This document shows, in pieces, positions 220 through 48,611 of a DNA stretch of 64,000 nt. A program made the position numbers and the translations under genes. Source of the DNA: Candidatus Liptonbacteria bacterium (GTDB taxonomy: Bacteria; Patescibacteriota; Minisyncoccia; UBA6257; 2-01-FULL-56-20); assembly GCA_023244895.1 (NCBI GenBank), contig JAHFLL010000001.1:681802-745801 (forward strand), in the 5' to 3' direction. The stretch's first letter is position 1; the number at the start of each line of letters is the position of its first letter. The notes under the pieces were generated by a model, which searched no databases, was not told the origin of the DNA, and was given only the letters and a program-made list of their open reading frames with translations.

Positions 220-3200
220 TTAGGATCCAGACACGTACGAGACGGAGTTGAGGTTGATCGGGGCAACGTTGGTCGGCAGCGAAAGGCTGCTGGTCGGCGT
301 GCCGGATAGACCACCCGTGTATCTCACATCTGTAGCCGCGTTGATGGAAGCTCCCAAGCCCTGAACCACACCGTTCGCACCAGCGAGAGTCTTGGTAGAG
401 TCTACGCGTAGCTTGAAGGAGTATGGCTGACCGGCAGAGATCTGCCAGCCGGCAGTGGTGGTTCCGAACATCCAAGTCTTGGTGCAAGTGTTGGTGCCGT
501 CGCAAGCAGCCGAGGTCGTAGCCGTTACACCAGAGGTGCTGGTTACGTTCACGCCGTTCGCGTCAAGCAAGGTCACACCCGCCAAGAAGGTGGAGATGGA
601 CGGAGCTGTACCGCTGAAGGTTACGGTCAAGGTGTTGAGGTAGGCGTTGTCCGCCGCATCAGCCGTAAAGGTGATGGTGGCGAAGTCGTCCGCAGTCAAC
701 TTGGAGCGGCTAGAAGCCGAACCGATCGCGGCAGAAGAGGCAGTCAGCTTGGTGCGCAATACGGTTAAGGTATTGGCAGTCGCGCCGCCGGAAGCCAGAA
801 CAACCGAGGAAGTAGCGTTAGACGTACTGCCCTTGGCGTTTACGGTTTCCGAGCCCATGTCGTCGTTATCGGTGTCGGTGGAAGTCGCGATCCTGAAGCT
901 GTGTGCGGAGTTATCCGACGCAGCGTTGGAGTTGTAGGTCGCTACATCTCCCTTCAAGATCAAACTGACCGAACCATTCTGAGGGATGGTCAAGTTCACG
1001 CCCGAGAACTTGTAGTAGTAACCAGCACCCGGGTTGGAGCTGGAAGCCGCGGTGTTAGAAGAACCAGCCGTGCCGATCGGGTTAACCAAATCGGTGGACT
1101 TATAGAGCTTCAGATTACCGAAGGAAGGCTTCACAGTTGAGGTCGCAGCTACTACGTCGAAGACGTTCAGGTCGGTGACCTTAATTTCATCCACGTTGGA
1201 AGTCTCCGAAAGCTGGAAGGCAGCCAAGGTGACTCCAGTCGAACCCATTACTACCTGGCCGGTGGCCGGAGTAAGGGAAGAGTTGAGGCCAACTGTTAAG
1301 GTCGCCTGACCAGCTACCGTCACAGCCTGACCAGCGGTGGAGGTGCAAGACACGGCGGTGCCGGTCGAGCCACTGCCAGAGCAGCTGGAAAGAGTGGTGA
1401 TGGTGTTGTTGGTCTGAGAGGTCGCCGAGGACAAAATGTCCGCGTAGACATCCACATAGACGGTCGTACCCTGGGCAACAGTGAACGGAGTACCCGCGAA
1501 GGAGTAGCTACCGTTGTTAGCCAAGGTGGCTTGCGTCTGACCAAACTGAGTGGAACCAATCTTTACCATCAAGTTCTGGAACTGAGCGCCAGCGGCGCCC
1601 ATCAAAACCGTGACGTTAGAGATAGTAACAGACTCCGCGGAAGAGGCAGACAGAGCGTAAGAACCGATCTTGCGCGCCAACGCACCCTTAGCGAAGGTCT
1701 GGGTACCAACTGCGCTGTTCTGAGCTACGGACAATGAAGTCGCGGACAAGGTCAGAGCACTGCCAGTCGCAGAACCGCTTGAGGCGGCTTGGCTGGAAGA
1801 CATGCCCTGCAAGTTGCTGGTATTGCCGGTTAAAGCACCGGTAATAGAGCTGAATGCCGCAGTGGACTGCACGTCACCGACCAAAGACAACACGCGAGTG
1901 GTGTTGGCCGGGACAATGTAGTTGATGTTGGAGCTAGTGTTACCGAAGCAGTTCGAGGCAGTCGAAGTGGCTGCCGAGAAAGCTGTACCGGTACAGGTCG
2001 CAGAGGTGGTCAAGGAGCTTATAGTAGCACCCAACTGACCGCCCGCATCATCCATCATGCGCACATTCTTGATTTCCTGGTCCCAATCTGCACCCAAGGT
2101 GCCGGTCGGAATCAATTGGAAGCCCAAGAACTTTACCTTAACCGCTTCGCCAGCGGCGTAGATGTTGAACTTAGCAAACGTTACATTGGACTGACCCTTC
2201 GCAACATTGCCGGTCGGGGTGTTGGAGGCCAAGGTGACAGTAATCTGTCCCTGGCTGATCGTTACCTGAGTACCGGTGTTGGACTGGGCTCCAATCGGAA
2301 CATTGTACTGAGAGTCAACAGCTAATACATCGTAGGAGTTCAAGATTTCGAACTGGAAGTTATAGCTCGCGGAACCCATAACGTCGGCGTAAACCTGAAC
2401 GTTATTGGAGCCGGTGTTAATCGTTCCAGGGGCCGAAGCCAAATCAAAGTAGGCCGAGCCATCTGCCGCAACCTGCGCCAAGGTAGAACCTACCTGGGTG
2501 CCGTTCACGAATAGCTTGACGTTCTTCAGATCGGACTTGTTGGCCGAACCGATAACCTTGAAGTTGATGCCCTTCAACCACACCTTGGAGTTGCCTCCAG
2601 TGAAGGTCCAGGCACCTACGATTACGTTCTGAGAGCCAGCAGTTACCGAAGTACCAATCGAAGACGAAGCGATGGTTAAGGTCGCGATCGCAGGATTAGA
2701 TACAGTGGTGACTGTCATGGTGTTTCCGTTCAAAGGATAGGAACCGCCAGCGGTGATCGCTGTGCCGGCTACGTCGGTCGCGGAGATATCCGCAGCCGAA
2801 GCAACTCTGAAGGAAATGGTGTTACCCGCGAACAAACCAGTGGCTGGATCTATGGCCAACTCAAAGGTGCGGGTCTGACCGGCGCCGACCGAAAGGCCTA
2901 AGCCGGAGAAGACCAATACGCCACCCGAAAGGGAGTTGTACTGGGCCAATACCTTACCATTTTCGGTCAGGTACGCACCGGAGATAGAACTGTCGGAAAC
3001 AACACCAGCTTTGGTGAACTTGATACCGTTGAAATTCACGGCGCCAGAATTACCAGCGGTTACATTCACGGCCAAAACCGGAATGCGCGCCGCGGAAGTG
3101 GTGCCAGAAATGATAGAACCAGCAACCGGGTTAGAGGCAGCGATGGTCGCTGTCAAACCGGAAGCCGGAACTACTACTGTGCCAGTGCCTGTGCCAGTAC

Positions 3201-3654
3201 CGGTTCCGGTGCCTGTGCCAGTGCCTGTGCCAGTCGAAGTGCCCATCGCCGCGATCTTAGCCCGAGTGATTGCACCAAAGTAGCCGGACGCCGGAGAGAC
3301 TCCGTTCGCCGCTTGCCACTTGGCCAAGGCTGCCTTGGTAGCTGCACCGAAATATTCGGTCTCGTTACCAGGGGAACCAGCACCACTCGCGGATACCTGC
3401 GCGCCATGAGAGTTAAGGAACTGCTGAAGGGCTTTTACTTGCGCTCCCTTCGAACCAAGAGTGAGGTTCATGGTGAAGGAATACGAAGAACCGCCGGTCT
3501 GCGCAGTACCTAACTGCGCCTGCAGTGCCGAAACCTGAGCGAGCAAGGCCGCAATCTGGGCCTGAAGATCAGTGGACGATTGAGCGGATACGCTCGGAAC
3601 TATGGCCAAAACGGTCATAGCGGTAAGCGCTATGGAAACTAATTTTTTGCTCAT
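220..3654 (-). CDS. Giant secreted cell-surface protein (1144 aa). It has an N-terminal signal peptide, a coiled-coil segment, a peptidoglycan-binding-like domain, a (Gly-Thr)n linker, and a long Thr/Ser/Ala/Gly/Val-rich region predicted to be beta-rich. Looks like an S-layer protein or adhesin
   Basis: ORF of 1144 aa; signal peptide MSKKLVSIALTAMTVLAIVPSVSAQS; PG_binding_1-like segment (KGAQVKALQQFLNSHGAQV...GYFGAITRAKI); TGTGTGTGTG linker; low-complexity T/S/G/A-rich body. Confidence 0.85.
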   Translation of the reverse strand: MSKKLVSIALTAMTVLAIVPSVSAQSSTDLQAQIAALLAQVSALQAQLGTAQTGGSSYSFTMNLTLGSKGAQVKALQQFLNSHGAQVSASGAGSPGNETEYFGAATKAALAKWQAANGVSPASGYFGAITRAKIAAMGTSTGTGTGTGTGTGTGTGTGTVVVPASGLTATIAASNPVAGSIISGTTSAARIPVLAVNVTAGNSGAVNFNGIKFTKAGVVSDSSISGAYLTENGKVLAQYNSLSGGVLVFSGLGLSVGAGQTRTFELAIDPATGLFAGNTISFRVASAADISATDVAGTAITAGGSYPLNGNTMTVTTVSNPAIATLTIASSSIGTSVTAGSQNVIVGAWTFTGGNSKVWLKGINFKVIGSANKSDLKNVKLFVNGTQVGSTLAQVAADGSAYFDLASAPGTINTGSNNVQVYADVMGSASYNFQFEILNSYDVLAVDSQYNVPIGAQSNTGTQVTISQGQITVTLASNTPTGNVAKGQSNVTFAKFNIYAAGEAVKVKFLGFQLIPTGTLGADWDQEIKNVRMMDDAGGQLGATISSLTTSATCTGTAFSAATSTASNCFGNTSSNINYIVPANTTRVLSLVGDVQSTAAFSSITGALTGNTSNLQGMSSSQAASSGSATGSALTLSATSLSVAQNSAVGTQTFAKGALARKIGSYALSASSAESVTISNVTVLMGAAGAQFQNLMVKIGSTQFGQTQATLANNGSYSFAGTPFTVAQGTTVYVDVYADILSSATSQTNNTITTLSSCSGSGSTGTAVSCTSTAGQAVTVAGQATLTVGLNSSLTPATGQVVMGSTGVTLAAFQLSETSNVDEIKVTDLNVFDVVAATSTVKPSFGNLKLYKSTDLVNPIGTAGSSNTAASSSNPGAGYYYKFSGVNLTIPQNGSVSLILKGDVATYNSNAASDNSAHSFRIATSTDTDNDDMGSETVNAKGSTSNATSSVVLASGGATANTLTVLRTKLTASSAAIGSASSRSKLTADDFATITFTADAADNAYLNTLTVTFSGTAPSISTFLAGVTLLDANGVNVTSTSGVTATTSAACDGTNTCTKTWMFGTTTAGWQISAGQPYSFKLRVDSTKTLAGANGVVQGLGASINAATDVRYTGGLSGTPTSSLSLPTNVAPINLNSVSYVSGS

Positions 3655-11966: not shown

Positions 11967-12150
11967 TAATTAAATATCTACACGTACTTAATCCGTCATC
12001 TAAAAGGAATTATGAATTAAGAATTGTGAATTAGGCAAATTCTAAGATCTCTTAAACCCACTACCGAGAAATAACGAGCTTAAGAGATTGGGCAGAGGCG
12101 GCGCATAAGACGCCACGTACCCAATATGCTTGACGGGAGAGCTCTCGCCG

Positions 12151-12714
12151 CTACAGGAAGATGATCAGTGTGCAGACCACCACCCAGACGAGCAGTACGA
12201 CGAAGTGCGTGAACTGCTCCTCCTTGTCAGGCTCATCGGCTTCGTACTCCCGAACCTTCCCTCCATCGTGAATGTCCCTTTCCTCCTTCAGAACCCGCCT
12301 GGGGATGCAGTTCTTGTAGTAGGAGTAGGTCCAGATCACGAAACCCACGAGTAGGAGGGGCACGCCCACCAGAAACTGAATCAGGTCGGTGCCGATCACC
12401 TTCCAGGCGATGAGGATCATAGTGAACTGCCCCACGCCGGTCTTGCTGAACTCGTCGGCCTGCTTGGTAAGCGCGCCGAGCGAGCCGTTCACAGCCTCGC
12501 CCACTTCCTTGCCGAGGCCGACCCACTTGCCGTAGGTCTCGATCCTGCGTTTGAGGTTGTCCTGCTCCACCGTCGCGATCTGCGAAGCGGTGAGTTGGCT
12601 CTTGGGAACAGAGACCATCTCCTCCTGGCCCGGTGCGGTCTGGGCCAGTACCGGCTGGACAAACCCAGCCAGAACTACGAACGCGACGAGGACGAACAGC
12701 AGTCTGCGCATCAC
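12151..12714 (-). CDS. GC-rich orphan ORF. Predicted exported protein with a signal peptide, a roughly 75-aa soluble domain and two C-terminal TM helices
   Basis: 187 aa; N-terminus MMRRLLFVLVAFVVLAGFVQPVLAQ; C-terminal hydrophobic helices; local GC clearly above the flanks. Confidence 0.55.
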   Translation of the reverse strand: MMRRLLFVLVAFVVLAGFVQPVLAQTAPGQEEMVSVPKSQLTASQIATVEQDNLKRRIETYGKWVGLGKEVGEAVNGSLGALTKQADEFSKTGVGQFTMILIAWKVIGTDLIQFLVGVPLLLVGFVIWTYSYYKNCIPRRVLKEERDIHDGGKVREYEADEPDKEEQFTHFVVLLVWVVVCTLIIFL

Positions 12715-12882
12715 ACTCTCCCTTGTTTGAGCCCAGCTTGAAAACTGGGCTGTTGGCTACGGCCCTCAAGAACAATTAATCAAAGATTGATTCCTGAAGG
12801 CCATAGCCACCCTTATCAAAGAACGGCCATAATATAAAATATGAATATTAATATGTCAATTTTTCTGCTTGATTCAGACTAG

Positions 12883-13437
12883 TTATGACTTCCCAAACCT
12901 GACCTCCTTCATCTCCCCCGTCTCCCGGTCGGGAATGAGAAACGCACCCTTCTCTCTATATATATCATATAGCCTCTTAGTCAGTTCTACATCTTTGAGA
13001 CAATATTCCTTCAGCTCCTCAAATCTGCGTTCGTCGTACATCTTAATGGCTTCTGAGCCATGCCCGGTTTTAGCCTCCCCTAAATTCGCCTCCGCGAGGC
13101 GGCTTAAACTGATACGCCGTCCGGTAACAAACTCTATTTTATCCAGCAGATCAACCCGTTCCTTCCCAAACAAATCTAGGCCCACTTTCAGCCTATTAAA
13201 ATGATAGTTCAAGACCGGAATATCGTAGCGATTACTACTGAAGCCAACCAGCGTGTCTGCCCTGTTAAAGTGTTCCGCCGCCAGCACCAACTCATTCTCA
13301 TTAAAATAAGAATATTTATCGGTTTCATATTCATAGATACCCACGCCAGAAATTTTAAGGCGCGCGAAATTATTCCAACCCACATCCGGGTCGGTAAAAA
13401 AGTTGGCTGTCTCAATATCAAATACTAAAGTTTTCAT
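12883..13437 (-). CDS. DEDDy-type 3'-5' exonuclease (DnaQ / YprB / RNase_H_2-like)
   Basis: Exo I motif LVFDIETANF; Exo II motif GFSSNRYDIPVL; Exo III motif YCLKDVELTKRLY; 184 aa. Confidence 0.75.
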   Translation of the reverse strand: MKTLVFDIETANFFTDPDVGWNNFARLKISGVGIYEYETDKYSYFNENELVLAAEHFNRADTLVGFSSNRYDIPVLNYHFNRLKVGLDLFGKERVDLLDKIEFVTGRRISLSRLAEANLGEAKTGHGSEAIKMYDERRFEELKEYCLKDVELTKRLYDIYREKGAFLIPDRETGEMKEVRFGKS

Positions 13438-13479
13438 TTGTATTCCCTGTTCTGTCTTTTACTACCTACTGCTAACTAA

Positions 13480-14040
13480 TCAGTGCGTGTATCTGTCCGC
13501 CACATTAGATGCCGCGTAGCTGTCTGGCTTGGTGATTGCTTCAAAATTGTAAGCGCGGATCATACCGACAACTTCTTGGATCAAGCTCTTGGTCGCTCCC
13601 CCCTCGCCCACGTCCGCGTGGATTTCAAACTCCCATTCCGGAATATTTTCCGCGCCTGGCCCGCTCGCGGGAATAAGATTGCGCAACTCCCCTAGAACCT
13701 GCTGGCCCAACTCTAAAGAAAGCATCACTTCCTTAATAATCCTGTCCCGCAAGGTGTGGAACTTGCCGTAATCTAAATGGCGCCAGAAGTACCTACCCCC
13801 GCTGCCTATGCGATGGATGACCACCGCAGTCACAAAATCAACCTTGTCTTCCGAATTCTTCTGGGAATCGGTGCCAATGGTTATCTTGTACTTGCGGAGT
13901 GGCTCCGCTCGCATAAAACCAACCAAATCCTCCACGAGCTCGGGGACGGTTCGCTTTAGGCCATATGCGCTATTAAACTTAGTATCTTCGGACACAATAT
14001 CCATACCAAAGCACTCTACTCCAAACCTAAATCCTGTCAA
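13480..14040 (-). CDS. Hypothetical protein with a probable RNase H-like (RuvC / RNase HI-like) fold
   Basis: 186 aa; ITIGTDSQ followed by VDFVTAVVIH (beta1-beta2 pattern with an acidic residue); C-terminal PEWEFEIHADVGEGG resembles the RNase HI WEWVKGHAGH region. The assignment is tentative. Confidence 0.45.
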   Translation of the reverse strand: MTGFRFGVECFGMDIVSEDTKFNSAYGLKRTVPELVEDLVGFMRAEPLRKYKITIGTDSQKNSEDKVDFVTAVVIHRIGSGGRYFWRHLDYGKFHTLRDRIIKEVMLSLELGQQVLGELRNLIPASGPGAENIPEWEFEIHADVGEGGATKSLIQEVVGMIRAYNFEAITKPDSYAASNVADRYTH

Positions 14041-14050
14041 AAAAATTGAA

Positions 14051-14075
14051 GCCCGGACGCTGTTCTGTCCGGGCT
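14051..14075 (-). terminator. Terminator hairpin after the small ORF at 14100-14456
   Basis: gcccggacgctgttctgtccgggc; on the minus strand it is followed by a T-run (plus-strand caaaaaaa at 14040-14047). Confidence 0.6.
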
Positions 14076-14099
14076 AAAGCCTTCTCTGTCCGCCGTCTC

Positions 14100-14456
14100 C
14101 TAGGACGGCTTACCAGACGGCAACGCGATGGACTCGCCGTATGCCCGCACCGTCTCCATGGCGGAGACCGTCCCGTCCTGGCGGCGCAGCTCCTCAGCCG
14201 TGTCCGAGGCCAGCCGGGCCGTGACCCGTTCCGCGTCCTCGATCACTCCCGAAATTCTGCCCACGAGGGGGGAGATGGCCAGCAGTTGACGCATGACCCT
14301 CTCGGCCTCCACCTGGCGCTCCAGGAGCTGCTTCTTGTCGTTGTCCACCACAGCGAAGAGTTGAGCGTGGATTCTCGACAAGGAAGCGTTCAGTGTTTCC
14401 ACCGCCTCGGTCAATGTGACCTGTCTTGACTCTGCCACAGCAGACCTCCTCCCCAA
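14100..14456 (-). CDS. GC-rich orphan small ORF (118 aa), predicted all-alpha, no recognisable domain
   Basis: Open frame in a high-GC segment with AT-rich promoter and terminator spacers on both sides. Confidence 0.45.
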   Translation of the reverse strand: MGRRSAVAESRQVTLTEAVETLNASLSRIHAQLFAVVDNDKKQLLERQVEAERVMRQLLAISPLVGRISGVIEDAERVTARLASDTAEELRRQDGTVSAMETVRAYGESIALPSGKPS

Positions 14457-14479
14457 CCGAGAAACCGGTCAGGCTGGCC

Positions 14480-14560
14480 CAATCATATCAATAGAAATAG
14501 ATACGTCAATTCCAAAACCATATAAAAAACGCAACGCCCGTGGCCACGATGGCAACGAGC
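14480..14560. terminator. AT-rich spacer with a near-palindromic hairpin (gcaacgcccgtggccacgatggcaacg) flanked by an A-run and a T-run. Looks like a bidirectional terminator
   Basis: aaaaaacgcaacgcccgtggccacgatggcaacgagcgttatttttt. Confidence 0.5.
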
Positions 14561-14561
14561 G

Positions 14562-14843
14562 TTATTTTTTGGTCTCATCTTTCGCTTGCCCTGCCCGCGC
14601 GATAGCCAGAGCGGACACGAGCGAGAGGTGAAGGTGCGCGAGAGTGCGCAGGGAGCCATACAGAGCGAGCTCGGCCTGGGCGGCGGCTTCCAGCACAGAG
14701 AGCTCTTCGGGAGAGACTCCCCGCTCCAGAGCATTGCGCACTTCCTGAATCAATCCCAAGACGCGCCGACGTGACTCGGCCGCCTTTTGTCGTTCGTCAA
14801 ACAGCCTCGCTGGGTCCATAAGTCCCCCTTCCCCTGCACTCAA
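14562..14843 (-). CDS. GC-rich orphan small ORF (93 aa), predicted helical
   Basis: Open frame in a high-GC segment bounded by AT-rich spacers. Confidence 0.45.
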   Translation of the reverse strand: MSAGEGGLMDPARLFDERQKAAESRRRVLGLIQEVRNALERGVSPEELSVLEAAAQAELALYGSLRTLAHLHLSLVSALAIARAGQAKDETKK

Positions 14844-14964
14844 CTAACACCTTCCAGTCATAAAAATCAAGACAGTACTAATATATATATCCTTAAAATG
14901 ACGAACGCTCGCGATGCCCAATGCATCGCGAGCGCTACCCTACTACGCCACGCATAGACGCCTC

Positions 14965-15207
14965 CTACGCCCGGGACGACCAACGAAGTTCAAACTCCTC
15001 TCGGGCTGCCTTCAGGTTGTCCATAGCTTCGGCAAGCCCGTCAAGCGAATCCGCGCAGGAGTTGCTTGAGGTCACGAGCTTGTCGACCGGAGGCTCACTG
15101 CCCTTTGGTCTTCCGGCCCATTCCCGATATCTGGCGGCTAGGCCCTTCGTTTTCACGGTTAGCGCCGCAACCAGATCCAGGAATGCGATTCCGTTTGGGG
15201 TGTCCAT
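14965..15207 (-). CDS. GC-rich orphan small ORF (80 aa)
   Basis: Open frame; downstream hairpin cgctcgcgatgcccaatgcatcgcgagcg at about 14905-14935; upstream promoter-like TTTACG...TATAGT. Confidence 0.4.
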   Translation of the reverse strand: MDTPNGIAFLDLVAALTVKTKGLAARYREWAGRPKGSEPPVDKLVTSSNSCADSLDGLAEAMDNLKAAREEFELRWSSRA

Positions 15208-15301
15208 GGCTCACCTCCCTTCTCCCAAGACGGTTCCTGCCCTTACTATAGCAAATCGCGGGTGCGCCGAAAAATATCGTAAATTCGCCTGCTTATAGAA
15301 A

Positions 15302-16648
15302 TTATTTGTTGTGGATTAGACCCAAAATTTCTTCTGTCTTCTGTTGCATAAGCTCTCTACTTTTGGCTTCTAAGTTTAAACGCAACATCCGTTCGCCGGT
15401 ATTAGAAAATCTCAGGTTCGCGCGCCAATCTGGATATTCTATTGAAATCCCATCCATATTGTTCATGCGTGCATCCGCGTAACGTCTTTCTAGCCTGGCC
15501 AGGACATTCTCTGAGTCAAATATATCCTTGAGGTAAGTATTTATCTCTCCCGAGATAAAATATTTTTGGAAAAGAGGCTCAAATAGCTCGCTAACCTTCC
15601 GGCCCGATTCCGAAACTATCTGAGATATGGTTAGGAATGGGATAAGACCGTTGTCCGCGTAAAAATAGTCGCGGAAGTAGTAGTGTCCGCTCATCTCTCC
15701 TCCGAAAACCGCGTCCTCTTTGCGCATACGTTCTTTAATGAATGTGTGACCTGCTTTATTTTCTATCGTACTGCCGCCTGCCGCCCCAACCAGATCTATG
15801 GTCGCTCGCGTTAAACGCAAGTCGCTCACCACCCTTGCGCCAGGATTCTTTTTCGCGAAATATTCTCCCAGAAAAGCGGTAATGTAATAGCCGGGAATGT
15901 AACGACCATTCTCGTCAAAAAGGAAGAATCTGTCCGCGTCCGCATCCCAAGCTACCCCAAAATCCGGTTTTTCTTTTTTTACCAGCTCTTCTGTCTCCAC
16001 CCTGTTCTGTTCCTGCAATGGATCGGGCTGGCCCTTAGGAAAACTGCCATCCATTTCTTCATTTAAGGGAATTATCTGAAACGGCAGATTAGCATTGCGA
16101 ATGTTTCGCAGCACTGGACCATTCATTCCGTTGATAACTATCCGCAAGGGCTTAAGCTTAGAAATATCAATAAATTCCAGGCACTTCTTTAAATAATCCG
16201 ACATAATTTCCTTGCCGCTTACCTGGCCCGCTATTTCCGCCTTATGTGCGTAGCCACCTTCCACCAACTTCTTTATATCGGACAGGCCAGAATCGGAAGA
16301 GATGGCCACTGCGTGGGCTCGCACCATTTTGATGCCGTTATATTCCCTTTTGTCGTGCGAGGCGGTTATACTCATGCCCCCATCCACCGGATATGCTCCA
16401 GCGGCAAAATAGAGCATGTCTGTAGTAATCACCCCGATGTCTATCACATTCACTCCATGGTCCATAAAACCCTGGGCGGCAGCACGACACAAAGCTGGAC
16501 CAGACAATCTCACGTCCCGTCCCAAAACCACCACTTTGGGCGAATACATTTTGCTGTATGCCTGAGCAATTGCATATACAGCCTTCTCGTCTATGTCCTC
16601 CGGATAGATGCCTCTTATATCGTATGCCTTGAATATGGCTGGATTCAT
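15302..16648 (-). CDS. Phosphomannomutase/phosphoglucomutase (alpha-D-phosphohexomutase family)
   Basis: 448 aa; active-site serine loop SITASHDKREYNGIK (TASHNP-type); four-domain phosphohexomutase layout. Confidence 0.85.
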   Translation of the reverse strand: MNPAIFKAYDIRGIYPEDIDEKAVYAIAQAYSKMYSPKVVVLGRDVRLSGPALCRAAAQGFMDHGVNVIDIGVITTDMLYFAAGAYPVDGGMSITASHDKREYNGIKMVRAHAVAISSDSGLSDIKKLVEGGYAHKAEIAGQVSGKEIMSDYLKKCLEFIDISKLKPLRIVINGMNGPVLRNIRNANLPFQIIPLNEEMDGSFPKGQPDPLQEQNRVETEELVKKEKPDFGVAWDADADRFFLFDENGRYIPGYYITAFLGEYFAKKNPGARVVSDLRLTRATIDLVGAAGGSTIENKAGHTFIKERMRKEDAVFGGEMSGHYYFRDYFYADNGLIPFLTISQIVSESGRKVSELFEPLFQKYFISGEINTYLKDIFDSENVLARLERRYADARMNNMDGISIEYPDWRANLRFSNTGERMLRLNLEAKSRELMQQKTEEILGLIHNK

Positions 16649-25335: not shown

Positions 25336-25397
25336 AAGAATAACACCTTTTCGTATATATTGCAAATAAGACCCAGTCAGATCATCAGCCAAGGCAT

Positions 25398-25438
25398 TTA
25401 TCCACGAGAATAGACGATCGTCTTTTTTTGTGGATAAA
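25398..25438. promoter_or_regulatory. Imperfect palindrome: two inverted DnaA-box-like 9-mers (TTATCCACG and TTATCCACA) flank a perfect 12-bp core agacgatcgtct. Its left half is related to the palindrome at 26843
   Basis: ttatccacgagaatagacgatcgtctttttttgtggataa. Confidence 0.5.
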
Positions 25439-25506
25439 TTGGCCCTGGTCTATTAATCTTTAGAAACGACTGTGGCCGGGGTGCGCTGATGCACCTCGGC
25501 CACGGA

Positions 25507-25770
25507 CTAGTCCCCTGGAGAGCGGGACCATGTGTCCCAAGCTGACGAGAAGAGCATCACGCCAGCCACGAGCAGACCCGCGACGCAGATACCCTTCGTC
25601 GGGGCAAGGGGCACGAGCAACCACGAGGCGGCCGCGAAGACCAGCCTCCAGGCAGCCTTCTTCGGGGTCGGAACCTTCGGCCTCATTATCCCTCCGAGGG
25701 AGCCCGCTTCGGCAGTCGCCCATGCGAAGGCTCCTACCGTTCCCAACAGCACCAACTCGCAAACCATCAT
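25507..25770 (-). CDS. GC-rich orphan small membrane protein (87 aa, 2-3 TM helices)
   Basis: Hydrophobic ORF in a roughly 330-bp high-GC segment, bounded by AT-rich spacers and a hairpin at 25471-25502. Confidence 0.45.
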   Translation of the reverse strand: MMVCELVLLGTVGAFAWATAEAGSLGGIMRPKVPTPKKAAWRLVFAAASWLLVPLAPTKGICVAGLLVAGVMLFSSAWDTWSRSPGD

Positions 25771-25886
25771 GTCTGACCTCCTTTTTTAATTATAACATAT
25801 TATCCATACATTGGCAAATACAACCAAGATTGGCAATAGAAACATTAATAATGTACATATCTGTCGCAAAATAAAATTGTGGTAGA

Positions 25887-26804
25887 ATGGGGTTAATGTC
25901 TAATCTGAAGGAGCTGGTACAAGATTATCTGAACTACCTGGAGATAGAAAAGGGGCGCTCCCCTCGCACCCGCGAGAACTACGAGCACTATCTCGCGGAC
26001 TTTATGGCCTACGCCAAAATCTCCTCCCCCAAAGACATTACCGACCGCCTGGTGCGCGAATATCGCTTGAATCTCGCACGGCGGGATATCAAAAAAATCA
26101 GCCAGAACTACTACACCATCGCTCTGCGCAACTTTCTAAAATATCTGGCACGGCGGGACGTTGTCTCTCTCCAGCCGGATAAAATTGAGCTGGCGAAAGT
26201 TTCCCGCGCGCAAATAGAAATATTGGAATATCAGGATTTAGAAAGGCTGCTCCAGGCGCCCCAGGGCGGAGACTTGCGCTCTCTGCGGGATAAGGCGATT
26301 TTGGAAATGCTTTTTTCAACCGGCCTGCGCTTGGCGGAACTGTGCTCTCTGGAGCGATATCTGAATTTGGAGCGGGGAGAATTTACGGTGCGGGGCAAGG
26401 GCGATAAGTTGCGGGTGGTTTTCTTATCCGACCGCGCCAAAAAAGCTATTAAGCAATACCTGGACAAGCGCACCGACGCGGAGCCGTATCTCTTCGTGAG
26501 TCTTTCTAAAATTGCCAAGGGCTCCAAAAAGGAGCCGAAGGTGCTGGGCAGAATAACCCCCCGGGCGGTGGAGCGGGCGGTGGAGCACTGGTCCAAGGTG
26601 GCGGGCATTCCCAAGCATATTCATCCCCACCAGCTACGACACAGCTTCGCGACCGATCTTTTAATGAACGGGGCGGACCTACGCTCCGTGCAAGAGCTCC
26701 TGGGTCATGCCAATATTTCTACTACTCAAATCTACACCCATCTAACCAACAAGGAACTTAAAGAGATCCACGAGGCCTTCCATGGCCAAAGGAGGAAGAA
26801 GTAA
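25887..26804 (+). CDS. Tyrosine site-specific recombinase of the XerC/XerD family
   Basis: C-terminal catalytic region HQLRHSFATDLLMNGADLRSVQELLGHANISTTQIYTH (R...H-x-x-R...Y); N-terminal SAM-like domain; extended -10 tgtggtagaat upstream. Confidence 0.9.
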   Translation: MGLMSNLKELVQDYLNYLEIEKGRSPRTRENYEHYLADFMAYAKISSPKDITDRLVREYRLNLARRDIKKISQNYYTIALRNFLKYLARRDVVSLQPDKIELAKVSRAQIEILEYQDLERLLQAPQGGDLRSLRDKAILEMLFSTGLRLAELCSLERYLNLERGEFTVRGKGDKLRVVFLSDRAKKAIKQYLDKRTDAEPYLFVSLSKIAKGSKKEPKVLGRITPRAVERAVEHWSKVAGIPKHIHPHQLRHSFATDLLMNGADLRSVQELLGHANISTTQIYTHLTNKELKEIHEAFHGQRRKK

Positions 26805-26842: not shown

Positions 26843-26884
26843 CTACTCCACGATAATTAACGATCGTTAATTATCGTGGAGTAG
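26843..26884. repeat. Perfect 42-bp palindrome with a 6-bp centre cgatcg and AT-rich arms, immediately 3' of the xer gene. Candidate dif-like site
   Basis: ctactccacgataattaacgatcgttaattatcgtggagtag is its own reverse complement. Confidence 0.6.
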
Positions 26885-29618: not shown

Positions 29619-31145
29619 CTACAGATTTTTTACGGTTTGTATCAAGCCTGCAATTGAGTTTTTTAACTCAATATCCGTATAATTAAAACTCTGCATCGTT
29701 TTATTTTCAGGATGATGCGTTTTATTTCTTATGAATGTTGGCAAGGTAACATCTATTTCTCCCTGGGACACTCCTCCGTACTCGGGATTCCACTTTTTAG
29801 TGGCTGCTATTTTTGTTTGTAAATAATCCTTCTCAAACACGGTTTGCTTACCCCTGCTATCGGCATCTGATTGATCAGTGGCCTTACTGATGAAAAGTTC
29901 GTGCAAATAACCATATAGCTCATCGTGAAATTCTATCGTGGGCATATCGTAAGCAAAATAATTAATTTCTCCCCAAGATGGGCTCCAAGAAGGGAAAAGC
30001 CCCCATCCTTTAGATCTTGCATCCTCAATCTTGATCTTATTATTCACGTCTCTAGTAAATAGCAGGAGCGTGGCATTCTGGGAAATGGCGCCCTTAAACA
30101 AATAGGGTGAGTGGGTAGAAACAATTATTTGTTTACTTTTCGATTCTTCAAGTAATAACTCCAACAGCTTTTCTTGTGCTTTGGGGTGAAGATGTAGTTC
30201 TGGTTCGTCAATTAAATAAACAATGCTGCCTTTTGAAGCTCCTGCTATGTTTTTTAGTATCAAAAGAGTCAATATTATCTCTACGCCAGAACCTAAATCC
30301 CTGACATTAATTTGAGACAAGGTATTTTCATCTCGTAAAGCGAAAAAGGCCGCGGAGAAAGGATGTAGAATATTTAAAAGTTCAATTTTAATTTTCTCAA
30401 ATTCGTCTTTTCCAAAAAACTCTTTTAACTCTTTAGTGGTCTTTTGGCTAAAACTCTTATTTGCAATCGCATCAACATTTTTAAAATATTCCCCTGCAAT
30501 ATTCTGAGAAATCATATTTATATTCTCATCTGTTAAATTCTTAACAAATGTCCAATTCAGATCATCACAGATTTTTTCGAAAGTTGTTTTATAGTTTCCA
30601 GTAGTAATTTGTCTTGTCCTATTTTTATCGAAAAAGAATATATTCAGTTCGTCGCTATCGTTGATTCTCGATTTGGAAAATATTTTATCTCTCCCATCAA
30701 TCTCTTTCCCCTGCGAACCATCTCCTTTTATATAATTGGCTTCTGTAATAAAGGAGTTATTTATTTGAAAAGGACTAGATAACAAATTTCCTCTTTCCTT
30801 GGTATCCCTACTCTTGGCCTTAAAAGAAACGCCCTTTGCTTTAAAACTCCAATCCTTATAAAAATCAATTCCCGAACCACAACCGAACTCATCACTCTCA
30901 GCTTCGACAAGTATCTCTTTTTTGAAATCAAAGAAATCGTTAATGCTTAATTTATTTTCCGCGGAAAAACTATTAAGCGTGAGATAATTAACTGCTTCAA
31001 GGACAGTAGTTTTTCCATTTCCATTCTCTCCAATGAGAATATTTAGACCGCTTCCACGATTTCCATTTGGAACATTAAAACTAATCGGTTCATTTTCAAA
31101 ACATCTATAGTTTTGAATCTTTAATTTTTTTATGAATATGGCCAT
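29619..31145 (-). CDS. AAA_21/AAA_15-type ABC-like ATPase. It has an OLD/RecF-like N-terminal ATPase head and a C-terminal roughly 150-aa domain of unknown type. Candidate defence ATPase
   Basis: N-terminus IKKLKIQNYRCF; Walker A motif GENGNGKTT; Walker B / D-loop motif VYLIDEPELHLHP...STHSPYLF; gene sits in an AT-rich island. Confidence 0.75.
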   Translation of the reverse strand: MAIFIKKLKIQNYRCFENEPISFNVPNGNRGSGLNILIGENGNGKTTVLEAVNYLTLNSFSAENKLSINDFFDFKKEILVEAESDEFGCGSGIDFYKDWSFKAKGVSFKAKSRDTKERGNLLSSPFQINNSFITEANYIKGDGSQGKEIDGRDKIFSKSRINDSDELNIFFFDKNRTRQITTGNYKTTFEKICDDLNWTFVKNLTDENINMISQNIAGEYFKNVDAIANKSFSQKTTKELKEFFGKDEFEKIKIELLNILHPFSAAFFALRDENTLSQINVRDLGSGVEIILTLLILKNIAGASKGSIVYLIDEPELHLHPKAQEKLLELLLEESKSKQIIVSTHSPYLFKGAISQNATLLLFTRDVNNKIKIEDARSKGWGLFPSWSPSWGEINYFAYDMPTIEFHDELYGYLHELFISKATDQSDADSRGKQTVFEKDYLQTKIAATKKWNPEYGGVSQGEIDVTLPTFIRNKTHHPENKTMQSFNYTDIELKNSIAGLIQTVKNL

Positions 31146-31165
31146 GCATTTAAATAAATTGCAAG

Positions 31166-31663
31166 CTATTTAGCCATTTCGCATTTACCAGAAGATACTA
31201 TCGCTCCCGTTCCGAGTGTCGCGATATCAACAAATTCTCCTTTATCGCCTAAGGCATCTCCAGTGACAACCTTGAACATCATTGCTTGACCTTGCAATGG
31301 AGTAAATTGTGTAAATTCTCCAGAAATGTGTACCTCAACTGGATATGAATCACATCCTTTAGTATCACACCTAAAATAGGTTCCGCTCTCAGTTCCATAA
31401 TCTACGAAATAATAAGTTGCTGGAGTTGAAGCCGTACAACTACCCCCACCACAATCAAACCGACTTGTCGGAAAACAAGAAAGCTCGGCGATATCTGCCA
31501 TTGCGGAATGTTGTGAGGATTCTTCATATGCGATCCTCAATGACTCGGTGGGCGGGATGATTACAGTTGTCGTTTGAACCTTTTCTTTATTTCCAAAAGC
31601 AATATAGGAAAAAATACCCAATAGAATTACAAGCATGCCAATAATTAAATTTTTCTTTTCCAT
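31166..31663 (-). CDS. Small exported Cys-rich protein (165 aa; N-terminal TM or signal sequence, 8 Cys)
   Basis: N-terminus MEKKNLIIGMLVILLGIFSYIAFG; downstream domain with CFPTSRFDCGGGSC...CDTKGCDS...GKCE. Confidence 0.55.
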   Translation of the reverse strand: MEKKNLIIGMLVILLGIFSYIAFGNKEKVQTTTVIIPPTESLRIAYEESSQHSAMADIAELSCFPTSRFDCGGGSCTASTPATYYFVDYGTESGTYFRCDTKGCDSYPVEVHISGEFTQFTPLQGQAMMFKVVTGDALGDKGEFVDIATLGTGAIVSSGKCEMAK

Positions 31664-34900: not shown

Positions 34901-35096
34901 CTTTTGACGAGTAGAGCGTAATTTCTCCGGCGTTCTCAACAGAAATGCACGAACCGTAATACTTGAGAAGTTTTTGCCAGCGCAAAGATGTCGGGTCGGT
35001 ATGAACCACCGGAGCTTCGTTTTCCGTTTTTCGCGCGATTGTCGTTCGCCTATATCCGCTCCGACCTCTGTATTTGTTGCGATAGTAGATTGCCAT
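31908..35096 (-). CDS. Large SF1 (Upf1/DNA2-like, AAA_11+AAA_12) helicase. It has an uncharacterized N-terminal domain of about 300 aa and a C-terminal DUF559/Vsr-like PD-(D/E)xK nuclease domain
   Basis: Motif I GPPGTGKSQ; motif II VIIDEASQ; VGDPNQL; YRSRAEIIGFSN; motifs V/VI VDTAHKYQGDERDIMIF; C-terminal RLDLAVLDSEIPIDIEIDGEMWH (DUF559-like). Confidence 0.8.
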   Translation of the reverse strand: MAIYYRNKYRGRSGYRRTTIARKTENEAPVVHTDPTSLRWQKLLKYYGSCISVENAGEITLYSSKEGVEFLQVPTMKKEWIASGKEKLEFEGQNEKIQAFISGPRWSRSPLSYFYGFPCHIKQIGQSRRGWSGQIIQPILIFGIDLIQTETGYAFILQSDRPRINSAFLTDKSLLTSVEERKQIAEAVLESWDDEKNRGQNLKIILGAFAELLPQEVPFSKDILGGKTTELKAESGVFPLGVIFRSADSKYTGGLEQELSELRDTTVPNDVWRVILDRNAEVKEDNGEGLLEITGLNDEQRGAVKSAFNNTVSVITGPPGTGKSQIVLNIIANALLRNESVLFGSKNHKAVDVVIERLLRLQSEPVILKYGQKEREIEFAEALLSAIERASSYNNQSLEREISEYKKELELVRSEEKEAQQSLFRILARRNRISRLDVTLESVRAELPSSISRNLDSYQKIEGKQEFYASLISLSRLVKEVDEGPSFISRILAFFGSTLEKRVLETAKSLLALAPIEDIPLSLNSIHACRELLTICRALKKWIDNQSELLGIVRENENEARVEVLRERITKSKERAIDISVRYVDALMKRRLKSLGPKERRDIADYVSIVRRLEGDVTGGELAEELRNERKRMFKSVVKAFPAMAVTNLSVRHALPLSAGAVDVVIIDEASQCDIASAIPLLYRAKRAVIVGDPNQLTHISLLHRVDDQQLQRQISLTSTDDQRFLYSINSLFELARSVVGTGAKFIHLLEHYRSRAEIIGFSNKKFYGGKLSVWTDYRRLRGAGHPDALTWHNVVGEVVRPSAGSAYNLEEAKAIVVLIGEIIGRISAHGDDYSVSLGVVTPFREQANKIRDLVEQKIDAAELRKLDFTVDTAHKYQGDERDIMIFSPVVSRKIQQRSLGFLGSTVNLFNVAITRARAELHIVGDRVACAQSGISHLSEFVQYVEELEPENKNKSGGKFESPWEEVLYDALAREGIRTVSQYPLYQYRLDLAVLDSEIPIDIEIDGEMWHRDIDGGRLLSDLKRDQHLIMHGWRVKRFWVYQLQNDLARCVLEIKEMLKLE

Positions 35097-35121
35097 AATT
35101 ACGAGCGAAAGTTCCTATTAG

Positions 35122-35208
35122 CGGAGAGGGAGGGAGTCGAACCCTCGAAGCCGGTTAAGGCTTACGCGCTTTCCAAGCGCGCGCACTAGGCCACTATGCG
35201 ACCTCTCC
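35122..35208 (-). tRNA. tRNA-Ser (anticodon GGA), a type II tRNA with a long variable arm
   Basis: Minus-strand sequence GGAGAGGTCGCATAGTGGCCTAGTGCGCGCGCTTGGAAAGCGCGTAAGCCTTAACCGGCTTCGAGGGTTCGACTCCCTCCCTCTCCG: 7-bp acceptor stem, anticodon loop TTGGAAA, T-loop TTCGACT, discriminator G, no encoded CCA. Confidence 0.85.
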
Positions 35209-47976: not shown

Positions 47977-48003
47977 TTAGCAGTCTACCTCGACGATTGC
48001 TAA
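47977..48003. promoter_or_regulatory. CIRCE-like HrcA operator upstream of groES
   Basis: TTAGCAGTC-N9-GATTGCTAA, compared with the CIRCE consensus TTAGCACTC-N9-GAGTGCTAA. Confidence 0.7.
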
Positions 48004-48043: not shown

Positions 48044-48496
48044 TCAGGGCAAGGACGAAAGAGCGAGCCGACCGCGGACCGGTCGGCTCTCATCTCCTCT
48101 TGCCCTCGCTTCCCGATATTGGGCCGGGTCGTCCCGGTCAAACACCTGGAACTCCACCGCCAGGACGAGCATCCGGCAGAATTCCTCAATGGCAGCTTCT
48201 GAGCCAAGCTGGAGCAGGTTCAGAGCCTTCTCCCGCATCTGCTCGGTTTCGCCCTGGGACAATGGGCGCTTCATGGCAATCTCGCGCGCCAAGGCGAAGG
48301 TCGCCACTCTCTGCGCCGTCCTCTCCAGTCGCCGCGCGACGATTGCCCTAGCGCGAATCCTGCCCGCTTCGGTTTTGGGGGCGTCCACCCCGAAAACCGC
48401 GCGGAAGCTTCGCTCCGATTCGCTCTCCCCCAGAAGCGCGAGTAGGATGCTTGCGACGACGAGCATGCCTGTCAGCACGCATACCAGAAACTTCAT
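48044..48496 (-). CDS. GC-rich orphan ORF of 150 aa: an N-terminal TM or signal segment followed by an Arg/Ala-rich helical domain
   Basis: High-GC segment bounded by AT-rich spacers; a heptamer array and a promoter-like region lie upstream. Confidence 0.45.
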   Translation of the reverse strand: MKFLVCVLTGMLVVASILLALLGESESERSFRAVFGVDAPKTEAGRIRARAIVARRLERTAQRVATFALAREIAMKRPLSQGETEQMREKALNLLQLGSEAAIEEFCRMLVLAVEFQVFDRDDPAQYREARARGDESRPVRGRLALSSLP

Positions 48497-48611
48497 GGCC
48501 TCGCCTCCTCTGGCTCAAAATAATATGCCCAAAACTAAACGGACACAATCCCCGCTCGTCAAGAAAATTTCCCCTCTTGCCTACTATATTCTATCTTCCA
48601 GATTCTAACTT

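What the first reader, a model, noticed from the sequence alone, without database searches (positions are those of the whole stretch)
12151..12714. Five loci of compositionally atypical (high-GC) single-ORF cassettes with AT-rich spacers
High-GC segments at 12.10-12.78 kb, 14.04-15.30 kb (three ORFs), 25.46-25.79 kb and 48.00-48.50 kb are estimated by eye at about 60-65% GC, against about 45-50% for their neighbours. Each encodes a small Ala/Arg/Leu-rich protein, several with an N-terminal signal or TM segment. All are on the minus strand, all are bounded by sharp AT-rich promoter- and terminator-like spacers, and none resembles a protein family I recognise. The alternative reading frames through these segments give Arg-rich nonsense, so the listed frames are the most protein-like. 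They might be recently acquired moron-like genes, orphan genes, or a dispersed family. One of them (25507-25770) sits inside the palindrome-flanked xer module.
Basis: seen in the sequence. Interest (0 to 1): 0.55.

Follow-up and report, generated by a model that had tools for sequence, protein, structure and literature searches.

The report
GC-rich accessory gene cassettes in CPR genome
Six small genes in this candidate-phyla-radiation (Paceibacteria) chromosome really are compositional outliers: each is a self-contained promoter, ribosome-binding site, gene and terminator unit between housekeeping genes, several come and go or are swapped among close relatives, and their functions are unknown, so this is an interesting but fairly ordinary flexible-genome feature.

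Summary
Six minus-strand ORFs at four loci have 59-64% GC, against 48% for the window and 47.5 ± 4.2% for 52 core ORFs. The listed frames have the GC3 and codon usage of a high-GC genome.

They are real genes, not RNAs or chance ORFs. Orthologues of A, B, D and F give dN/dS 0.26-0.45, against 0.01-0.10 for neighbouring core genes. Rfam finds nothing.

They are not one dispersed family and share no flank motif.

All six carry a strong Shine-Dalgarno site, against 4 of 44 core genes (p = 1e-5). Relatives show the same split.

Close relatives (Liptonbacteria-like groundwater MAGs) show slot-wise turnover.
- C is a clean ~375-bp insertion between a terminator and the next promoter.
- A and E are absent from, or replaced in, close relatives.
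- B is replaced CDS-for-CDS in one relative, with its promoter, SD and terminator kept.
- Relatives carry other GC-rich cassettes where this window has none.
- B and F sit in the same slot in three or four relatives (39-87% identity) and stay GC-rich, so they are old residents, not recent arrivals.

A belongs to an uncharacterised phage-borne membrane-protein family. E has no homologue.

Verdict: moron-like flexible gene cassettes in a cellular chromosome. Function unknown, interest moderate.

The parts
12151..12711 (-). Cassette A CDS (186 aa from ATG 12711; alternative GTG at 12714). Signal peptide, long helical hairpin, beta-hairpin and C-terminal TM helix. GC 0.60, GC3 0.835.
   Evidence: Composition. 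Matches phrog_33832 at E 1.9e-10 and phrog_19575. 31 homologues found, 23 aligned with conserved motifs. Present in 10 IMG/VR contigs. AF2 model pLDDT 83. BFVD hits to uncharacterised phage proteins.
12720..12859 (-). Cassette A promoter-like site (TTGACA-17-TATATT, 12859-12831), GC-rich 5' UTR and GGGAGAG Shine-Dalgarno site.
14100..14438 (-). Cassette B CDS (112 aa from GTG 14438), helical, GC 0.64, GC3 0.81. Orthologues occupy the same slot in L008 (87%), L120 (P0042; 51%, 47% in the alignment) and L049 (39%).
14445..14509 (-). Cassette B promoter (TTGACG-16-TG-TATGAT), 5' UTR and GGGGAGGAGG SD. Conserved at 89.6% in L048, where the CDS is replaced by the unrelated Y.
14050..14075 (-). Cassette B hairpin terminator, conserved in four relatives.
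14515..14893 (-). Cassette C as a whole: AT-rich upstream region, GGGGAAGGGGGA SD, CDS 14562-14819 (85 aa) and terminator 14548-14530. It is a clean ~375-bp insertion relative to L048 and L008.
   Evidence: The only distant homologue is P0043 at 53%.
14965..15207 (-). Cassette D CDS (80 aa), with a GGGAGGTG SD at about 15215-15225. Its orthologue is 81% identical in L048. L008 and L120 carry the unrelated X instead.
14904..14936 (-). Cassette D hairpin terminator (14 pairs). Conserved in L048, and also in L008 downstream of the different gene X.
25507..25770 (-). Cassette E CDS (87 aa; the 86-aa form from ATG 25767 is the one in the protein library). Hydrophobic, GC 0.64. No homologue other than itself.
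   Evidence: Absent from the S15|xer spacer of L121/L122 and L006.
25777..25817 (-). Cassette E promoter-like site (TTGCCA 25817-25812, 17 nt, TATAAT 25794-25789) and AAGGAGG SD (25783-25777).
   Evidence: Read from the sequence.
25472..25503 (-). Cassette E G+C-rich hairpin after the stop codon, with a weak T tail.
   Evidence: Sequence; seen in the fold.
48044..48496 (-). Cassette F CDS (150 aa): N-terminal TM helix plus a helical hairpin. GC 0.63. Orthologues occupy the same trxB|groES slot in L009 (P0037, 66-67% identical) and L119 (P0040, 42-44% identical).
48504..48510 (-). Cassette F GAGGAGG Shine-Dalgarno site.
48065..48089 (-). Cassette F hairpin (GAGCCGACC / GGTCGGCTC) inside the 3' end of the CDS, upstream of the separate groES promoter.
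   Evidence: Read from the sequence.

Best explanation
The six ORFs are real protein-coding accessory genes. Each is packaged as its own transcription and translation unit: a sigma-70-like promoter, a strong Shine-Dalgarno site, a small CDS and (for B, C, D and E) a G+C-rich hairpin after the stop codon; F's hairpin lies inside the 3' end of its CDS, and no canonical terminator was found after A. They sit in intergenic slots between housekeeping genes of a Paceibacteria (Liptonbacteria-like, CPR) chromosome.

They belong to a gene class that differs from the core in three ways. It is 10-16 GC points richer, with high-GC codon usage. It depends on SD sites in a genome whose core genes have none. 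Its proteins evolve about ten times faster.

Shown: the units are unrelated to one another. Whole units are gained or lost exactly between a terminator and the next promoter (C, A, E, and Z in a relative). In other cases only the CDS is exchanged while the promoter, SD and terminator stay (B to Y, D to X). Neighbouring core genes show mosaic divergence.

Inferred: turnover happens by homologous recombination in the conserved flanks among co-occurring strains, drawing on a GC-richer, SD-using gene pool that is at least partly phage-borne. A is a phage family and carries its SD wherever it is found. B and F entered before the sampled relatives diverged and have been inherited vertically since. 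C, A and E are more recent or more labile.

Inferred with low confidence: the products are small secreted, membrane or helical proteins under weak purifying selection. They may act at the cell envelope in phage or host-cell interactions, for example superinfection exclusion by A.
For: - Composition and codon usage.
- Independent signals.
- Shine-Dalgarno sites: 6 of 6 cassettes against 4 of 44 core genes, Fisher p = 1.3e-5. In relatives, 11 of 13 GC-rich slot genes against 2 of 21 core genes, p = 1.8e-5.
- Coding status: dN/dS is 0.38 and 0.37 for F, 0.26 and 0.36 for B, 0.45 for D, 0.44 for A and 0.31 for X. Core genes give 0.01-0.10. The family alignments look protein-like.
- Turnover: the slot comparisons are.
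- Recombination mosaic: PMM is 69% identical to L048 while the adjacent RNase-H-like gene is 97%.
- Phage link for A. SD sites on A homologues in a phage-like contig and in other CPR genomes. The A homologue is GC-rich relative to its flanks in L006 and L047.
- Found in several independent assemblies, so not a misassembly.
Against: - No donor was identified. The phage copies of A have the low GC of their phages. B and F have no viral relatives.
- B and F stay GC-rich across relatives with saturated dS. That fits intrinsic maintenance as well as incomplete amelioration.
- No integrase, repeat or target-site duplication marks the junctions. The insertion mechanism is therefore inferred only.
- E rests on a single sequence.
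- Promoters and terminators are consensus matches, not measured.
- Function is not supported by any fold or family match.
Confidence: 0.6

Rival explanations
1. These are native, vertically inherited lineage-specific (orphan) genes. Their high GC and SD dependence are intrinsic properties. For example, a GC-rich and therefore structured mRNA may need an SD site in an otherwise SD-independent translation regime, and selection or biased gene conversion at recombination hot spots may keep GC3 high. No foreign origin is required.
For: F and B are syntenic in three or four relatives. Their dS is similar to that of neighbouring genes, and they are GC-rich in every relative. No donor or mobility gene was found. 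The slots coincide with recombination mosaics.
Against: C, A, E, Z and the two extra L009 genes are presence/absence polymorphisms among genomes 78-89% identical at the DNA level. A sits at different loci in different genomes and in phages. Slot genes that are not GC-rich (W, W') also lack an SD site, so the two traits travel together as a package.
Confidence: 0.25
2. The GC-rich segments are structured non-coding RNAs or other non-coding elements. On this view the ORFs are by-products of low stop-codon frequency in GC-rich DNA.
For: GC-rich DNA gives long ORFs in several frames. E has no homologue, and its region folds slightly better than shuffles (z = -1.9).
Against: Rfam gives no hit at gathering threshold for the window. 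In E-value mode over 12000-15400 and 25380-25900 it gives none, or only chance-level miRNA and sRNA hits. Frame-specific GC3 periodicity is present. dN/dS is well below 1 and indels are in-frame for A, B, D, F and X. Every ORF has an SD site at the correct spacing. A forms a conserved 23-member protein alignment with a confident fold.
Confidence: 0.05
3. This is one mobile system: a dispersed cassette family moved by a site-specific recombinase (integron-like, or xer-mobilised) that recognises a shared site in the flanks.
For: E lies next to a tyrosine recombinase gene flanked by two palindromes. The units are compact and modular.
Against: There is no shared sequence or repeat among the flanks or cassettes. 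Each unit has its own promoter, unlike integron cassettes. The xer gene is a conserved syntenic XerC/D-type gene present in relatives that lack E. The ACGATCGT-centred palindromes occur only at xer, not at the other cassettes.
Confidence: 0.03
4. Metagenome assembly or binning artefact: GC-rich fragments from another organism chimerically joined into the CPR contig.
For: The source is a metagenome-assembled genome, and the GC boundaries are sharp.
Against: The same junctions recur in independent assemblies from different samples and projects (L008, L009/L010/L011, L048, L049, L119, L120). Flanking promoters and terminators are shared with relatives.
Confidence: 0.02

Closest known systems
Phage morons (Juhala, Hendrix and colleagues' definition, from my own knowledge): extra single genes between conserved prophage genes, with their own promoter and terminator and a deviant base composition
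   Same: Single-gene unit with its own sigma-70-like promoter and a G+C-rich hairpin; a scan-called or T-tailed terminator only for B, C, D and E. Inserted exactly between genes that are adjacent in relatives. Composition differs from the neighbours. One member (A) belongs to a phage-borne family.
   Different: The host replicon is a cellular chromosome. The neighbours are housekeeping genes (nifS/iscS-like, PMM, rpsO, xer, trxB, groES), not prophage genes. Two units (B and F) are stably inherited. The units also differ from the host in translation-initiation signal.
Genomic islets, or flexible-genome hot spots replaced by homologous recombination in conserved flanks (as described in pan-genome studies of many bacteria; my own knowledge)
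   Same: Conserved core flanks with variable content between close relatives, mosaic divergence of adjacent core genes, and no integrase or repeats.
   Different: The units are very small (0.3-0.7 kb, one gene). They are GC-rich rather than AT-rich, the opposite of the usual bias of accessory DNA. In two cases the exchange is confined to the CDS between a conserved promoter/SD and a conserved terminator.
PHROG families phrog_33832 and phrog_19575 (uncharacterised phage proteins)
   Same: Cassette A matches them (E 1.9e-10 and 1.8e-7). Its model superposes on uncharacterised myovirus and podovirus proteins in BFVD.
   Different: Here the gene is solitary in a chromosome with no prophage around it, and it is 12 GC points richer than its host.
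Integron gene cassettes
   Same: Compact single-ORF modules that vary between strains, one of them next to a tyrosine recombinase.
   Different: There is no attC-like repeat, no array at an attI site, and each unit has its own promoter. The recombinase is a housekeeping Xer type.

Membership tests
Phage moron (sensu Hendrix) | Independent transcription unit: own promoter upstream and factor-independent terminator downstream of a single gene | tested here: met
   Consensus promoters were found for A, B and E. Hairpin terminators were found for B, C and D, and hairpins for E and F. These are sequence-level matches only, not expression data. No canonical terminator was called after A.
Phage moron (sensu Hendrix) | Inserted between two genes that are adjacent in related genomes | tested here: met
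   C is absent in L048 and L008. The A slot is empty in L049. E is absent in L121, L122 and L006.
Phage moron (sensu Hendrix) | Base composition distinct from the flanking genes | tested here: met
   GC 0.59-0.64 against 0.475 ± 0.042. GC3 reaches 0.84.
Phage moron (sensu Hendrix) | Located in a phage or prophage genome | tested here: not met
   The neighbours are core genes, syntenic in many Paceibacteria. There are no phage structural or integration genes around any cassette.
Integron gene cassette | attC recombination site at the 3' end, shared in structure between cassettes | tested here: not met
   No shared direct or inverted repeat among the four loci.
Integron gene cassette | Promoterless ORF arrayed next to intI/attI/Pc | tested here: not met
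   Each unit has its own promoter-like site. The cassettes are dispersed. The adjacent recombinase is a syntenic XerC/D type.
PHROG 33832 / 19575 (cassette A only) | Significant profile match over most of the protein | tested here: met
   E 1.9e-10 over residues 37-134 of 187, and E 1.8e-7. Supported by 10 viral loci and a BFVD fold match at E 3.6e-10, TM 0.56.
Classical genomic island | tRNA-adjacent, >10 kb, integrase and flanking direct repeats | tested here: not met
   The units are 0.3-1.3 kb. The only tRNA lies at 35121-35208. No repeats were found.
Known structured RNA family (Rfam 15) | Covariance-model match at or near the gathering score | tested here: not met
Known anti-phage defence proteins (PADLOC-DB) | Profile match to a defence-system component | tested here: not met
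   No hit for any of the six cassettes or four cassette genes from relatives.
Type I toxin-antitoxin small hydrophobic toxin (considered for E) | Short hydrophobic peptide with an overlapping or adjacent antisense RNA that represses it | not tested
   E is hydrophobic, but it is 87 aa long and has a strong SD and its own promoter. No antisense-transcript analysis is possible with these tools.

The most novel reading that the evidence does not exclude
This Paceibacteria clade may maintain a dedicated second gene class: small, GC-rich, SD-dependent, fast-evolving envelope or helical proteins. These would be exchanged among co-occurring strains as idiomorph-like cassettes docked between conserved promoter/SD and terminator 'sockets'. 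The sockets would act as a population-level diversification system for interaction with phages or with the host cells these episymbionts depend on. The separate translation-initiation mode (SD against SD-less) would allow the whole class to be regulated together.
Probability: 0.15. Interest if true: 0.65.

Novelty: new variant of a known kind. Interest (0 to 1): 0.4.

Why it matters
CPR bacteria have tiny genomes and an episymbiotic lifestyle, and most of their strain-specific genes are unannotated. This analysis gives a simple, checkable signature for the flexible gene pool of one clade: GC excess, a Shine-Dalgarno site in an otherwise SD-less genome, and a single-gene promoter/terminator unit.

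It also shows slot-wise turnover and CDS-precise replacement among near-identical genomes. One member links to a phage-borne membrane-protein family.

If the signature holds genome-wide, it would help separate core from accessory genes in CPR MAGs. It would also point to candidates for phage or host interaction proteins. The composition is unusual because accessory DNA is normally AT-richer than its host, not GC-richer.

Tried and rejected
- **Concatenated query in the word-indexed search.** Searching B+C+D+E+F together returned nothing, not even the sequences themselves. An exact look-up showed B, C, D and F are in the collection, so that search was uninformative. The exhaustive HMMER search was used instead.
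- **Dispersed family or shared motif.** All-vs-all blastn-short and blastp found nothing.
- **ncRNA reading.** Rfam at gathering and E-value thresholds, tRNA/tmRNA scanning and folding of E all gave nothing useful.
- **Family and defence annotation.** Pfam, PHROGs and PADLOC gave only the PHROG hits for A.
- **Fold-based function.** Models of A and F gave no significant PDB match, and afdb50 was unavailable. BFVD returned only uncharacterised phage proteins.
- **Phage origin of B and F.** No relatives in IMG/VR.
- **Donor search through A homologues.** Phage and other CPR copies have local, not high, GC.
- **Junction analysis of the A slot.** The spacers are too diverged to define breakpoints or target duplications.
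- **Homology of swapped partners.** B against Y gives a weak E of 0.01 with shifted register, and E against the L123 slot ORF gives E 1.7. Both were treated as unrelated.
- **Own contig of the window.** It is not indexed for context look-up.
- **Literature.** Two searches found nothing specific on GC-rich or SD-bearing accessory genes in CPR.

Full report

Yes. The window has 48.2% GC, and 300-bp windows have sd 5.5 points and a 99th percentile of 61.2%. The four named segments measure 58.7%, 57.9%, 62.2% and 61.3%. The six ORFs measure 59.3-64.0%.

Against 52 long ORFs taken as the core (mean 47.5%, sd 4.2), the six lie 2.8-4 sd out. GC3 in the listed frames is 0.63-0.84, against 0.53 ± 0.08 for the core. 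A, B and F show the coding signature GC1 > GC2 < GC3.

Codon choice is that of a ~60-65% GC genome. ATA falls from 0.34 to 0.04 of Ile codons, TTA from 0.14 to 0, AAT from 0.55 to 0.10 and AAA from 0.51 to 0.19. Ala, Arg, Val and Leu are enriched, and Ile, Lys, Asn and Tyr are depleted.

Of the five gaps longer than 400 bp in the core ORF map, four are these loci.

Three caveats apply. The title says five loci but lists four. The shared minus-strand orientation is simply that of ~83% of the genes here. Some ordinary genes contain stretches of similar GC.

**2. Anatomy**

Each ORF is its own unit.

- **Promoters.** The scan finds TTGACA-17-TATATT upstream of A and TTGACG-16-TG-TATGAT upstream of B. 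E has TTGCCA-17-TATAAT.
- **Terminators.** G+C-rich hairpins with T tails follow B, C and D. Hairpins follow E and lie at the end of F. No canonical terminator was called after A.
- **Ribosome-binding sites.** Every ORF is preceded at the right distance by a strong Shine-Dalgarno site: GGGAGAG, GGGGAGGAGG, GGGGAAGGGGGA, GGGAGGTG, AAGGAGG and GAGGAGG.

The SD sites turned out to be the sharpest discriminator. Only 4 of 44 core genes have even a GGAG or GAGG at -20 to -3. Their upstream regions are A/T-rich, and several have a TATAAT about 7-10 nt before the ATG, which suggests leaderless or very short-leader mRNAs. Fisher p = 1.3e-5. A window-wide scan for SD-plus-start combinations finds almost only sites internal to genes apart from the cassettes.

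**3. Are they genes?**

No tRNA, tmRNA or Rfam family matches these loci, even at E ≤ 1 over 12000-15400 and 25380-25900.

The forms of B, C, D and F with the starts I inferred are present in the public protein collection from an 840,672-bp contig.

An exhaustive HMMER search of 1.84 billion representatives found only tiny families:

| Cassette | Homologues found |
|---|---|
| B | 87%, 51%, 41% |
| C | 53% |
| D | 81% |
| F | 66%, 44%, 52% |
| E | itself only |

A has 31 homologues, of which 23 were aligned and show strongly conserved motifs (YGKWVGLGKEVG, TGVGKFTM..AWKV).

Pairwise dN/dS against orthologues is 0.38 and 0.37 for F, 0.26 and 0.36 for B, 0.45 for D and 0.44 for A. It is 0.31 for X, a cassette gene found only in relatives. 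Adjacent core genes give 0.01-0.10.

A, B, D and F are therefore translated genes under purifying selection, but they evolve about ten times faster than the core. C has only one distant homologue. E remains unverified.

**4. One family?**

No. All-vs-all DNA and protein comparisons of the four loci, with flanks, give nothing beyond chance 11-mers. There is no shared repeat or recombination motif.

**5. Organism and relatives**

The neighbours are housekeeping genes: a cysteine desulfurase-like gene, two RNase-H-fold genes, PMM, PNPase, S15, XerC/D, TrxB, GroES/EL and LemA.

The nearest named relative is a Candidatus Liptonbacteria MAG with Xer 86% identical. More distant loci come from Paceibacteria and Parcubacteria MAGs. 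Close relatives, 78-89% identical at the DNA level and syntenic, come from aquifer metagenomes.

**6. Slot-by-slot comparison**

| Slot | This window | Relatives |
|---|---|---|
| PMM \| RNase-H-like | D-C-B | L048: D'(81%)-Y; L008: X-B'(87%); L120: X'-B''(P0042; 51%, 47% in the alignment); L049: B'''(39%) |
| RNase-H-like \| exonuclease | 43 bp | L048: Z, a 113-aa TM protein at 62% GC |
| exonuclease \| nifS-like | A | L048: W (48% GC, no SD); L049: empty, 140 bp; L120: W' + 47 aa + a 209-aa gene at 60% GC |
| S15 \| xer | E | L121/L122 (Xer 95%): unrelated AT-rich 245-290 bp spacer; L006: 139 bp; L123: a different 61-aa TM ORF with SD and hairpin at 62% GC, not homologous to E |
| trxB \| groES | F | L009 (P0037, 66-67% identical) and L119 (P0040, 43-44% identical): F in the same slot, 61% GC |
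| groEL \| lemA | 125 bp | L009: two GC-rich genes (106 and 166 aa) |

Two details in the first slot stand out. C is a clean ~375-bp insertion between the D terminator and the B promoter. In L048 the B promoter, 5' UTR, SD, last codons and terminator are conserved (89.6% for the promoter block), but the CDS is replaced by the unrelated Y of almost equal length.

In relatives, GC-rich slot genes carry SD sites in 11 of 13 cases, against 2 of 21 core genes (p = 1.8e-5).

PMM in L048 is only 69% identical while the gene two positions away is 97% identical. The region is therefore a recombination mosaic.

**7. How old are they?**

For F and B, dS to the orthologue is similar to that of the flanking core genes (0.52 against 0.66-0.78, and 0.29 against 0.47). 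The genes occupy the same slot in relatives whose dS is saturated, and they are GC-rich everywhere.

B and F are therefore long-term residents, not recent arrivals. Whether their GC excess is incomplete amelioration or is actively maintained cannot be decided here. C, A, E and the relatives' extra cassettes are labile.

**8. Where do they come from?**

Only A gives a lead.

- It matches two PHROG families of unknown function.
- It has relatives in ten IMG/VR contigs of 27-365 kb.
- It lies in a replication-gene neighbourhood of a 148-kb phage-like contig.
- Neighbouring ORFs in two viral loci match phage proteins such as RNA ligase, HNH endonucleases and portal.
- Its AF2 model (pLDDT 83) matches only uncharacterised phage proteins in BFVD, with a best E of 3.6e-10, and nothing in the PDB.

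A is solitary between core genes at different places in different CPR genomes. It keeps a strong SD site in all of them. It is GC-richer than its surroundings in this window, in L006 and in L047 (0.51 against 0.32-0.37), but not in phages or in a Giovannonibacteria genome.

B and F have no viral relatives. No ~60% GC donor was found.

**9. Function**

No Pfam, PHROG (apart from A), PADLOC or PDB match reaches significance.

- A is a signal-peptide protein with a long helical hairpin, a beta-hairpin and a C-terminal TM helix.
- F is a TM-anchored helical hairpin.
- E is hydrophobic.
- B, C and D are predicted to be helical.

F is not part of the groESL operon. It ends in its own hairpin, and groES has its own promoter plus a CIRCE-like operator.

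A role at the envelope in phage or host interaction, such as superinfection exclusion by A, is a low-confidence inference. It rests on three features of these genes: their phage association, their membrane location and their fast evolution.

**10. Comparison with known kinds**

The units work like phage morons, and they meet three of the four defining features. They fail the fourth because they are not in a prophage.

They are not integron cassettes, classical islands, known RNAs or known defence proteins.

The closest general concept is a flexible-genome hot spot replaced through recombination in conserved flanks. Three features are unusual:

- the single-gene scale;
- the GC-rich rather than AT-rich bias;
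- the coupling to a different translation-initiation signal.

**11. Verdict**

The feature is real and well delimited. The 'dispersed family' and 'recent acquisition' readings are not right in general.

It is a new variant of a known kind and of moderate interest. The main value is the GC + SD + slot-turnover signature for the accessory gene class of this CPR clade.

Noticed in passing
window-wide (start codons of 44 core ORFs): Core genes essentially lack Shine-Dalgarno sites (4 of 44). They have A/T-rich upstream regions, and several have a TATAAT about 7-10 nt before the ATG. This suggests leaderless or SD-independent initiation as the default in this genome. The 16S anti-SD could not be checked because it is not in the window.
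   Followed up: partly
window 29619-31663 (-): A low-GC island (30-37% GC). It encodes a 508-aa AAA_15/AAA_21 (OLD/Abi-type) ATPase plus a 165-aa protein with no family match. In the close relative L121 a 707-aa reverse transcriptase sits beyond the methyltransferase at the corresponding position. This looks like a variable defence-gene slot of the opposite compositional bias.
   Followed up: partly
window 25396-25439 and 26843-26884: Two palindromes of 44 and 42 bp bracket the xer gene, and both are centred on ACGATCGT. The one next to rpsO has a counterpart in relatives L121/L122 with the same centre but different arms. The 8-mer occurs only at these two places in the window.
   Followed up: partly
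window 47977-48003 (-): A CIRCE-like inverted repeat (TTAGCAATC-N9-GACTGCTAA) lies between a TTGACG/TATAAA promoter-like pair and groES. It is conserved in L009. This implies HrcA-type control of groESL, separate from cassette F.
   Followed up: no
window 220-3654 (-): A 1144-aa ORF with a peptidoglycan-binding domain has elevated GC (0.555) and an unusual pattern (GC2 0.55 > GC1 0.47). It is a large, compositionally odd, probably surface protein.
   Followed up: no
L048 76-1104 vs window 15302-16330: The phosphomannomutase gene of the close relative L048 is only 69% identical (pS saturated). The RNase-H-like and exonuclease genes 1-2 kb away are 95-97% identical. This is a sharp recombination mosaic boundary at the cassette slot.
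   Followed up: partly
window 49558-49917 (-): A 119-aa 23S-rRNA-IVP / bAvd-like four-helix-bundle protein with low GC (0.41), conserved in L009. Proteins of this family accompany diversity-generating retroelements in some genomes, but no RT is nearby here.
   Followed up: no
window 31908-35096 (-): A 1062-aa superfamily-1 helicase (AAA_11/AAA_12) with a C-terminal MTES_1575/DUF559 endonuclease-like domain. It lies directly next to the low-GC ATPase island and just upstream of tRNA-Ser.
   Followed up: no
L009 9727-9903: The relative L009 has a 58-aa MazE/AbrB-type antitoxin-like gene between trxB and the F orthologue, where this window has only ~90 bp. No partner toxin gene was seen.
   Followed up: no
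L006 8660-10405: In the more distant relative L006, the A homologue is followed by a 581-aa ORF at 61% GC (local stretches up to 0.65-0.67) with no Pfam match. GC-rich accessory genes in this clade are therefore not always small.
   Followed up: no
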